The notes under the pieces are model-generated. The model was not told the origin of the DNA. It made no database searches and saw only the letters and a program-made list of their open reading frames with translations. A stretch of 63,203 bases of DNA, the filler included, from Intoshia linei (taxonomy: Eukaryota; Animalia; Orthonectida): assembly GCA_001642005.1 (NCBI GenBank). It is 10 parts of 10 records of this genome, joined end to end, with 100 filler letters (N's around TTAATTAATTAA, not from the genome) between each part and the next. Parts side by side here need not be neighbours in the genome. Positions count along the whole stretch, not along the records: positions 26,973 to 32,138 come from LWCA01001818.1; 9 more parts are not named here. The stretch is one strand, 5' to 3'. Shown here piece after piece: positions 26,973 to 29,280 of the stretch. The position numbers were made by a program, and so were the translations under genes. Numbering within the stretch: position 1 is the stretch's first letter; each line of letters starts with the position of its first letter.

Positions 26973-27081
26973 AGCCGAATCTAATATGAACGATTTAGTT
27001 TCTGAATATCAACAATATCAAGACGCAACTGCCGAAGAAGAAGGCGAATTTGATGAAGAGGAGGAAGAGGAAGAAGCTTAA
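26973..27081 (+). CDS. TUBB: Beta-tubulin copy A, 3' end only (5' part in gap)
   Basis: [35 protein letters not shown] directly after the linker. Confidence 0.95.
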
Positions 27082-28378
27082 ACTGCTATGCATTATGTAA
27101 TGCAAAGTAGTTGATATTTCAATTAGTATCTTAAATAAATTTATAAAAATATAGTTTTATTTCGAAATAAACAAGAATTTAGTAAATTTATTAGACTTGT
27201 TTGATTCTGTATTATTTATACTTATTTCTCAATGTCCTTCTATTTCTATTGTATTACTATTTTCAATTTTAGTATTTTATTAAACAATTACTGTATGTTT
27301 TGTTTTATTAGTTTATTTACCAACTATACATATTGTTAACAATTTTTTTTATATTGAAACACATTTGGCTATTGAATCGTTTCATTCTAGTTTTATGTCT
27401 TTGATTTGCTAAATAATTGTTATATATTTACAGAAATTATGTACAGAACATTAATTTGTAATAGACTAGACAGTCTAATAATATTTTTAAATGTTAATAA
27501 ATATTTAACTTATAAAATCACATGAAAATTTTTGTTGGTTTATTAAATTTTAATAGACATTTATTTTTTTAAATTAACTTACTTTTTAATATCATATTTC
27601 GTTCAATTTTTTTAATTAATTTTGATTAGATTTGGTGTGTCATGTGCAGTTATGCCAACCATATAAAATTCGGTATGTTAATTTTTTTGTTATTTTTGAT
27701 TAACCTCGTGCAATTTGTGCGAGAAATTGAGTTGAATGAACATAAGTTGTAAATTTAAACTTTGTTTAAGAATCAAGTAAATTCTTTAGTGATTTTTTAT
27801 TTATTGAAAAATCACGTAAATCGGTGTTTTGCTATCGTTGATCTAGTCGAATATGTATTAATTTTATAAAAAATAATGGGTAAACGATAAATACATTTGT
27901 GATTATTACCTTAAGACCATATTACATACCAGTCGGTTATAACAGATGAGTTGATAGTTTTTATTTGAGTAAATATAAAATTGTTTAAATTCATTAACGA
28001 CTTTCTTATAAGATTAATGTATAATTGTAAATGACCAACATGAATTTTATTTTCCCAGATTTGCCAAGCCTACATAGGACCTGATCCAATAATAATTTTT
28101 TTATGAATCACCCTGTTATCTTGATATTTTGCTGAAAGACTGTTGGTCCAAACATTTTAATAATTTGTTTTGTATTGATAGAAAAAATTTATATTATTTC
28201 CATTACTACATGTATTATTATTACATTCTAAATGTGAACCCTAATTCGGTCAAATTGTTACCACGTCAAAAAAACAAAATTTGTAGAATTGGTAAATTTT
28301 GGTCAATATTTTTCAGCTAATGCAATTTTATAATTGTATAAACTCTTTTATAAAAATTATATAATTTAATCATTTTAG

Positions 28379-29280
28379 GAATGGGAACATTAATTATATC
28401 TAAAATTCGAGAAGAATATCCAGATCGAATTATGATGACATTTTCCGTTGTACCATCTCCCAAAGTTAGCGATACCGTAGTTGAACCATACAACGCAACG
28501 CTTAGCGTACATCAATTGGTTGAAAACACTGATGAAACTTATTGTATTGATAATGAAGCTTTATATGACATTTGCTTCAGAACTCTTAAATTGACTACTC
28601 CAACTTATGGCGATTTGAACCATTTAGTTTCTGCCGTTATGTCAGGAGTTACTACTTGTCTTCGATTCCCTGGTCAATTAAATGCAGATTTAAGAAAATT
28701 AGCCGTAAACATGGTTCCATTTCCTCGATTACACTTTTTTATGCCTGGATTTGCACCTTTAACCTCGAGAGGATCTCAGCAATATCGTGCTTTGACAGTA
28801 CCTGAACTAACTCAGCAAATGTTTGACGCTAAAAATATGATGGCAGCTTGTGATCCCCGTCATGGACGATATTTGACTGTCGCAGCAATGTTTAGAGGAA
28901 GAATGTCCATGAAAGAGGTTGATGAACAAATGCTTAACGTACAAAACAAAAACAGTTCCTACTTTGTTGAATGGATACCTAATAATGTTAAAATTGCAGT
29001 TTGTGACATTCCACCAAGAGGGCTTAAAATGTCTGCTACATTTATTGGAAACAGTACTGCCATTCAAGAACTATTCAAACGTGTATCAGAACAGTTCACA
29101 GCAATGTTTAGACGAAAAGCTTTCCTTCATTGGTATACTGGTGAAGGAATGGATGAAATGGAGTTTACTGAAGCCGAATCTAATATGAACGATTTAGTAT
29201 CTGAATATCAACAGTATCAAGACGCAACAGCTGAAGAAGAAGGTGAATTTGACGAAGAAGAGGAAGAGGAAGAAGCTTAA
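28379..29280 (+). CDS. TUBB: Beta-tubulin copy B: intact terminal exon (residues ~146-end) with no local exons 1-2
   Basis: Acceptor cattttag at 28371-28378 is at the same phase-1 position as intron 2 of copy C; uninterrupted 299-aa ORF to TAA. Confidence 0.95.

What the first reader, a model, noticed from the sequence alone, without database searches (positions are those of the whole stretch)
26973..29280. Orphan beta-tubulin terminal exon under purifying selection with no exons 1-2 of its own
Seen: copy B starts at a clean acceptor at exactly the intron-2 position of copy C. The 1.3 kb upstream (27082-28378, no gap) contains no MREI/FWEV/GGGTGS coding sequence; what precedes it is the stop and 3' UTR of another tubulin (copy A). 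Against copy C, roughly half of the first ~55 codons differ synonymously, yet only 2 of ~190 shared residues differ. Against copy A, the last 35 residues are identical with 7 silent changes. The exon therefore looks old and still translated. Inference: one set of exons 1-2 is spliced to either of two duplicated ~300-codon terminal exons (isotype choice by alternative last exon and polyadenylation), or two tubulin genes are interleaved, or exons 1-2 are supplied in trans. Animal beta-tubulin isotypes normally come from separate complete genes.
Basis: partly seen in the sequence, partly recalled or inferred. Interest (0 to 1): 0.8.

Follow-up and report, generated by a model that had tools for sequence, protein, structure and literature searches.

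The report
Tubulin gene with swappable back halves
A beta-tubulin back-half exon with no front half of its own is joined in transcript assemblies to a front half that is likely shared with a sister copy, so one gene likely builds tubulin from either of two duplicated back ends, an unusual layout for this very conserved protein.

Summary
Exon B (28379-29280, tubulin residues 146-445) has a clean acceptor and no exons 1-2 in the 1.3 kb upstream. Against copy C it has 75 silent and 2 replacement codons of 191 (dN/dS about 0.009).

Public run contigs show it is used. In three spliced-RNA runs (one study), an exon 1-2 contig that is not C's (60 differences) ends in B's first bases. The contig breaks there and depth drops; a second, B-like exon 3 rejoins further on. 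The DNA run shows one genomic copy of this donor, followed by at least 200 non-exon letters. B and the upstream tail A have homologous 3' UTRs with their own poly(A) signals.

Best reading (0.62): a tandem duplicated last-exon cassette, donor ex1-ex2, ex3(tail A), ex3B. Not shown: physical linkage of the donor to B, and which exon-3 body owns tail A. Nesting or trans-splicing remain open.

The two products are almost identical (19 of 20 seen differences silent), so this is hardly isotype switching. The layout is known (Drosophila PGRP-LC, pip), and this scan noted similar orphan last exons in non-tubulin genes of other genomes. My paper searches found none for tubulin.

The parts
26973..27082 (+). 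Copy A: last 35 codons and stop of a beta-tubulin exon 3, cut by the contig edge; likely the tail of the proximal sister cassette
   Evidence: Sequence; 7 silent differences to B; A-type tail contig in RNA run X2, depth 1005, none laid in X3 or X4
27083..27444 (+). 3' UTR of A, AATAAA at 27134 and 27166; first ~85 nt homologous to B's UTR
   Evidence: 78% over 83 nt, E 3e-12; local score 128 vs maximum 105 in 500 shuffles; X2 contig ends at 27444; signals
27445..28378 (+). Spacer acting as the 3' part of B's intron; no exon 1-2 remnants; ends in the acceptor AG
   Evidence: one X2 contig of depth 19.7 covers 27445-28406 across a 66-nt allelic deletion; patchy depth 1-4 in X3 and X4
28379..29280 (+). 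Copy B: orphan terminal exon, beta-tubulin residues 146-445
   Evidence: Pfam Tubulin and Tubulin_C above cut-off; up to 97% identity to full-length beta-tubulins; RNA contigs start at the acceptor
28379..28400 (+). First 22 nt of B: the stretch carried on the end of the donor exon-2 RNA contig; the graph breaks at 28401
   Evidence: 21-letter loose end identical to 28380-28400 in X2 and X3; bin depths reproduced by arithmetic in X3 and X4
29281..29360 (+). 3' UTR of B, ATTAAA at 29329 and AATAAA at 29333
   Evidence: X3 contig 29128-29328
29750..30300 (.). High-copy interspersed repeat between B and C; the B-to-C link is not spanned by any listed contig
   Evidence: X1 bin depth up to 591 against 6-19 in the flanks; many loose ends
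31044..32138 (+). Copy C: separate, ordinary beta-tubulin gene (exon 1 31044-31100, exon 2 31147-31525, exon 3 from 31564, cut by the gap); not B's donor
   Evidence: both introns spliced in X2, X3 and X4, and C's RNA contig is unbroken from exon 2 into C's exon 3

Best explanation
Exon B is an intact, transcribed terminal exon that is joined to an exon 1-2 set other than copy C's, and it is likely the second of two (possibly three) tandemly duplicated last exons of one beta-tubulin gene whose front half would lie upstream of copy A. Shown: B's acceptor is used; the partner exon 2 is a distinct sequence; one DNA copy of it was laid, with a GT and 204 non-exon letters after exon 2; A and B carry homologous UTRs and poly(A) signals. 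Inferred steps: (1) A duplication with breakpoints inside intron 2 and just past the poly(A) site copied the whole last exon. (2) Transcripts either splice to the proximal exon (type D, probably ending in tail A) and are cleaved there, or read through the 1.3 kb spacer and splice to B. (3) Because B takes roughly a quarter to nearly half of the donor's output, a faulty product would poison microtubules, so purifying selection keeps B intact, with patchy gene conversion among the copies. The choice changes the 3' UTR and about one residue, not the tail, so its effect is more likely dosage or mRNA handling than a new isotype.
For: Donor join: the 21-letter loose end of the deep exon-2 contig equals B 28380-28400 in X2 and X3, and differs from C's start. 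Bin 28357-28529 depths of 661.4 (X3) and 768.1 (X4) are reproduced exactly by B's contig plus 24 letters of that exon-2 contig. Donor is not C: 60 differences over exon 2 in X3; of the 40 listed, 34 of 37 codons are silent and 3 conservative. Single donor: of 6 X1 records laid on 30990-31860 at 80% likeness, only C (depth 18.6) and one other (1228 nt, depth 9) cover exons 1-2. Branch: in the two RNA runs where both ends are listed (X3, X4) the donor contig ends at 28400, and X2 shows the same loose end. Depth falls from 1741/1696/10845 to 475/602/4783 on B. A variant-bearing contig of higher depth takes over at 28639 in X1, X3 and X4. That sister type differs from B at 20 of 422 nt in X4, 19 silently. 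Sister relation of A and B: homologous UTRs; tail divergence 7/108 against 83/575 for B vs C, Fisher p 0.029. Weak hint for read-through: X2 holds one contig from 27445 across B's acceptor. C's RNA contig shows no branch into B even in X2, where C is deep.
Against: The donor is not in the window and no whole genome is held, so cis linkage and order are not shown. The sister exon's first 260 nt were laid in none of the 4 runs, on B at 85% or on C at 80%. The tool drops human-like contigs unannounced, so the second branch is inferred, not read. Tail A appears in RNA only in X2 (1 of 3 runs), while the D-type body is deep in all three; its pattern (1005, none, none) also fits C (1535, 36, 36). 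A further tail type, not A and not B, has depth 260 in X4, where only B and D are deep, and could be D's real tail. C and D appear to share sequence in their 3' halves, which weakens the Fisher comparison. All data are assembled contigs: depth is a flat mean, a poor measure of expression, and variants are not phased. The three RNA runs come from one study, their RNA nature is inferred from spliced joints, and X1 may be the window's source.
Confidence: 0.62

Rival explanations
1. Interleaved genes in cis: A is the tail of a complete, separate beta-tubulin gene (C itself if the contig is circularly permuted through the repeat, or a C-like copy) nested in the donor gene's long intron 2; B is spliced across it.
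For: Tail A is seen only in the run where C is deep. A further tail type at depth 260 in X4 could be D's. The B-to-C link crosses an unspanned high-copy repeat. Both contig ends fall 54 nt from an inferred variant, as a k=55 graph break inside shared tubulin sequence would give (inference).
Against: C's exon 2 never branches into B in its RNA contigs. C's DNA depth (18.6) matches another, divergent tubulin locus (17.4), so no second C copy is needed. A misjoin through a many-copy repeat landing on a tubulin neighbour is unlikely unless they are adjacent (inference). A's tail is closer to B than C's body is. Loss of short 3' tips in contig cleaning can explain A's absence in X3 and X4 (inference).
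Confidence: 0.15
2. Trans-splicing: donor exons 1-2 and B are transcribed separately and joined, as at Drosophila mod(mdg4).
For: The donor is outside the contig and its position is unknown. The donor's intron 2 is at least five times longer than C's 38-nt intron.
Against: A homologous tail with a homologous UTR lies 1.3 kb upstream on the same strand. The spacer is covered up to B's acceptor in X2. Cis splicing explains everything seen with fewer assumptions.
Confidence: 0.08
3. Two separate genes with identical, collapsed front halves: B has a private exon 1-2 far upstream that is identical to the D gene's, or B and D are alleles or assembly variants.
For: Gene conversion is evident among the exon-3 copies (mosaic similarity), so identical front halves are conceivable. 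The sample is heterozygous in the spacer.
Against: The donor's DNA contig is unbroken over 1228 nt, including 546 nt upstream and 204 nt of intron, at depth 9, no deeper than single-copy flanks at 7-19. B's private front half would still have to lie beyond A. B's 5' contig has depth 13.5 with 0 differences, about the sum of the two spacer haplotypes, and depth doubles where B and the sister merge (28.7), as for paralogues.
Confidence: 0.1
4. B is a young pseudogene or the remnant of a gene whose exons 1-2 were recently deleted.
For: No exons 1-2 upstream.
Against: Spliced RNA contigs use its acceptor in 3 of 3 RNA runs; dN/dS about 0.009; neutral decay would have broken it.
Confidence: 0.02

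Closest known systems
3' tandem cassette clusters of Drosophila PGRP-LC, CG42235 and pip (PMC6191721, passages read; PMC9013439, passages read)
   Same: Common 5' exons joined to one of several tandemly duplicated terminal cassettes, each with its own 3' end.
   Different: There the cassettes encode diverged domains and are chosen by competing RNA pairings. Here the cassette is one exon holding two-thirds of a beta-tubulin, the products are nearly identical, and cis linkage and regulation are untested.
Diptera betaTub97EF mutually exclusive exons (PMC4202323, passages read)
   Same: A duplicated exon spliced alternatively in a beta-tubulin gene; that paper calls splice variants of alpha- and beta-tubulins 'very unlikely' and gives this case.
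   Different: betaTub97EF has an internal exon pair with 76.7% protein identity. Here the duplicated unit is the whole terminal exon with UTR and poly(A) signal, at about 99% protein identity in the parts seen.
Trans-spliced mod(mdg4) locus of Drosophila (PMC6237743, PMC12692577; search-listing abstracts only)
   Same: Common exons joined to alternative 3' exons.
   Different: There the 3' exons have their own promoters and joining is in trans. No promoter for B is shown, and the spacer coverage hints at read-through.
Ordinary tandem clusters of complete beta-tubulin genes (PMC4202323, passages read)
   Same: Several same-strand beta-tubulin copies side by side; copy C is such a gene.
   Different: B is not a complete gene: fewer exon 1-2 sets (2 laid in DNA) than exon-3 types (at least 3, probably 4).

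Membership tests
Beta-tubulin | Tubulin GTPase and Tubulin_C domains | tested here: met
   B: PF00091 54 bits (cut-off 33) and PF03953 152 bits (cut-off 26.6); best hits are beta-tubulins at up to 97-98%
Beta-tubulin | N-terminal MREI exon in the mature product (motif recalled; present in C) | tested here: inconclusive
   Absent in cis. The donor RNA contig has an exon 1 with 7 differences to C's, but those letters were not among the rows shown
Beta-tubulin | Acidic C-terminal tail; axoneme motif EGEFXXX (PMC2880298, passage read) | tested here: met
   Both A and B end in EGEFDEE followed by an E run
3' tandem cassette cluster (PGRP-LC/pip type) | Homologous terminal cassettes in tandem on one strand | tested here: met
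   Tail A plus UTR and exon B plus UTR, 1.3 kb apart, homologous; only the last 110 nt of A's coding part is in the window
3' tandem cassette cluster (PGRP-LC/pip type) | Each cassette has its own poly(A) signal | tested here: met
   AATAAA at 27134 and at 29333, 52 and 53 nt after the respective stops; cleavage sites not mapped
3' tandem cassette cluster (PGRP-LC/pip type) | The same upstream exons are spliced to more than one cassette | tested here: inconclusive
3' tandem cassette cluster (PGRP-LC/pip type) | Common exons lie in cis upstream of the cassettes | not testable with these tools
   No genome held; only contigs, no long reads
3' tandem cassette cluster (PGRP-LC/pip type) | Docking/selector RNA pairing (found in some, not all, such clusters per PMC6191721) | not testable with these tools
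Trans-spliced locus (mod(mdg4) type) | 3' exon transcribed from its own promoter; mixed-haplotype mRNAs | not testable with these tools
   Contigs show no starts and are unphased
Pseudogene | Broken frame or neutral substitution pattern | tested here: not met
   Open frame, dN/dS about 0.009

The most novel reading that the evidence does not exclude
The animal's main beta-tubulin is a split, modular gene: one front-half module supplies up to three separate back-half exons, and B is reached not by simple read-through from its neighbour but across an entire nested tubulin gene or by trans-splicing.
Probability: 0.23. Interest if true: 0.82.

Novelty: new variant of a known kind. Interest (0 to 1): 0.58.

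Why it matters
Tubulin diversity in animals is taken to come from separate complete genes. [quoted passage not shown] This locus appears to route a highly expressed beta-tubulin through alternative whole terminal exons that encode two-thirds of the protein. Because the products are almost identical, it would show a partial duplication being kept by selection without a new protein function. It would also let one test, on a single promoter and 5' region, whether the tubulin 3' UTR or poly(A) choice matters by stage or cell type. Practically, gene predictors will miscount or discard such exons as fragments.

Tried and rejected
Whole-genome look-up: none held, so the donor could not be placed. Exact protein look-up of B from its first Met: not in the collection. 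Exact DNA scan of metagenome contigs with the B acceptor junction: 0 matches. The run search listed no holder on record as RNA; the spliced joints in X2-X4 showed them to behave as RNA.

I tried to assign tail A to a body by depth co-variation across the three RNA runs; it first pointed to C, but tip removal in contig cleaning makes it non-discriminating, so I left it open.

The tblastn used a mis-framed exon 1 and was repeated correctly. Repeat search in the spacer: no direct repeats, 11 short AT-rich inverted pairs. Rfam: 0 matches at E 0.1. A spliced leader on B is rejected: its 5' partner is a coding exon 2.

Lineage was not determined. The ArfGAP exon's only hit at E 1e-25 or better was a scallop protein at 44%. 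A recalled resemblance to compact-genome parasitic worms led to two paper searches with nothing on this locus in the listings.

Paper searches for a tubulin with alternative or duplicated last exons (listings and abstracts only) showed none. The library lacks most subscription journals, and I saw no supplements. Earlier scan findings by place and by sequence held nothing on this genome or layout in tubulin.

Full report
SETTING. The window is ten contigs joined by nine identical 100-base linkers (44 N, a 12-base word, 44 N), so adjacency across gaps is unproven. The finding lies in one 5166-base contig, 26973-32138, of an AT-rich genome with short introns. The lineage was not determined; an ArfGAP exon in the window is only 44% identical to its single strong hit, a scallop protein. 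No whole genome is held.

OBSERVATION. The contig carries, on the + strand, the last 35 codons of a beta-tubulin (A), a 1296-base spacer, a lone terminal exon (B, 28379-29280), 1.76 kb, and a three-exon gene (C) cut by the gap. B begins after an AG at the same phase-1 position in Gly146 as C's exon 3. B and C differ at 75 silent and 2 replacement codons of 191; dN/dS is about 0.009. Neutral decay at a tenth of a substitution per site left 2% of 1000 simulated copies open. A and B have identical last 35 residues with 7 silent changes. No exon 1 or 2 remnant is found in the spacer, and C's are the only ones in the window.

B IS SPLICED, AND NOT TO C. Eight public runs were listed; I laid four. 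All are assembled contigs. X2, X3 and X4 (one study) skip both of C's introns at GT..AG, so they behave as RNA. In all three, a contig identical to B over 292 nt starts at the acceptor (depth 4783, 475, 602, against 1535, 36, 36 for C). A second, deeper exon-2 contig differs from C's at 60 sites in X3 and X4. Its 21-letter loose end in X2 and X3 is identical to B 28380-28400 and differs from C's exon-3 start. The bin depths at B's start in X3 and X4 are reproduced exactly by adding 24 letters of this contig to B's own. Of the donor's 60 exon-2 differences, 40 were listed: 34 of 37 codons silent, 3 conservative (I30V, V64I, V91I). C's RNA contig runs unbroken from exon 2 into C's exon 3.

ONE DONOR, MORE THAN ONE BACK HALF. 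In the DNA run X1, 6 records were laid on C's 5' region at 80% likeness. Only two cover exons 1-2: C and one 1228-nt contig of depth 9. The latter has 546 nt upstream, a shorter intron 1, exon 2, a GT at the same position, and 204 further letters that did not fit exon 3. So the donor's intron 2 is long compared with C's 38 nt. In RNA the donor contig ends at 28400 and depth falls to 27%, 36% and 44% of the donor's on B (contig depth is a crude measure). B's own contig ends at 28668 in all four runs. In X1, X3 and X4 a deeper contig with a few other letters takes over from 28639. This is the pattern of a second exon 3 (type D) that shares B's first 22 nt, diverges, and rejoins. In X4 its two laid pieces differ from B at 6 of 224 and 14 of 198 nt; 19 of the 20 are silent and one gives A248S. 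These pieces are not phased to each other.

WHERE THE DONOR LIES. It is not in the window. For the simple tandem order (donor, D ending in tail A, spacer, B): A and B have homologous UTRs (78% over 83 nt; score 128 against a maximum of 105 in 500 shuffles) with AATAAA 52-53 nt after each stop. A's tail is closer to B (7/108) than C's body is (83/575; p 0.029). One X2 contig of depth 19.7 runs from 27445 across B's acceptor. C does not splice to B. Against: tail A is laid in only 1 of 3 RNA runs, the one where C is deep. A further tail type with depth 260 in X4 matches neither A nor B. C and D seem to share 3' sequence, and the B-to-C link crosses an unspanned repeat. DNA depth of B-type pieces doubles in the 3' half (27.1 against 13.5), and at least four tail types can be read from the tables, so a third cassette is possible (inference). 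These points keep nesting (0.15), trans-splicing (0.08) and collapsed duplicate donors (0.10) alive.

MECHANISM. Most likely a partial tandem duplication copied the last exon with its acceptor, UTR and poly(A) signal. Splicing to the proximal copy with cleavage there competes with read-through and splicing to B. Once B captures a sizeable share, a defective subunit would be harmful, which is enough to explain the strong purifying selection (inference from general knowledge of tubulin polymerisation). The tails are identical and both carry the EGEFXXX axoneme motif (motif from PMC2880298). B's unusual I351 (T in 85 and V in 16 of 104 homologues) is shared with D over the laid piece. The choice therefore alters the UTR and about one residue, not the isotype-defining tail.

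COMPARISON. The layout works like the 3' tandem cassette clusters of Drosophila PGRP-LC, CG42235 and pip (PMC6191721, passages; PMC9013439, passages). Membership is met for tandem homologous cassettes and separate poly(A) signals, inconclusive for the second join, and untestable for cis linkage. [quoted passage not shown] Searches listed no tubulin with alternative duplicated last exons; I saw listings and abstract openings only, and the library is incomplete. Two earlier scan notes describe duplicated or orphan last exons in non-tubulin genes of other genomes; I did not check them.

VERDICT. A real, expressed feature; a new variant of a known kind of gene architecture, unusual for tubulin. 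Shared front half with alternative back halves is well supported (about 0.85 across the cis and trans readings); the simple tandem order is the best single model (0.62). Interest 0.58.

Noticed in passing
window 29143-29253 (tables): At least two further tubulin tail types besides A and B appear in the runs (one at depth 260 in X4 with a matching variant in X2, one at about 11 in X1 DNA), and B-type DNA depth doubles at 28833-28989. A third terminal cassette may exist.
   Followed up: partly
window 27593-28006: The spacer is polymorphic: a 66-nt deletion (27770-27835) in X1 and X2 contigs, and a joint skipping 412 nt in another X1 contig.
   Followed up: no
window 29750-30300: High-copy interspersed repeat (X1 bin depth up to 591) with no second copy in this window.
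   Followed up: partly
window 31622-31699: A more divergent tubulin-family locus elsewhere in the genome (X1 contig of 1777 nt, depth 17.4; also in X2 and X3) matches only this short stretch.
   Followed up: no
window 31468-31527: A depth-3 contig in X3 with GC-rich beta-tubulin codons, probably from another organism in the sample.
   Followed up: no
window 25494-26870, - strand: Two long frames (233 and 225 codons) separated by a stop; recalled resemblance to a hAT-type transposase, but no Pfam hit.
   Followed up: partly
window 51028-52254: DDE_1 transposase pieces; about 230 nt are near-identically repeated on both sides of the lone N at 51910, probably an assembly overlap.
   Followed up: partly
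window 52749-53135 and 62111-62509, - strand: Retrotransposon fragments: RT_RNaseH and integrase core domains.
   Followed up: no
window 21956-23194, + strand: A 413-codon open frame with no Pfam match; unexplained.
   Followed up: no
window 32669-33560, + strand: 3' exons of a protein kinase (recalled resemblance to cGMP-dependent kinase; frame read); its 5' part is missing at the gap, so this contig is not simply adjacent to copy C.
   Followed up: no
window 39589-39930 (+) and 48869-49114 (-): Exons of an ArfGAP (SMAP-like, 44% to a scallop protein) and of a sodium:neurotransmitter symporter.
   Followed up: partly
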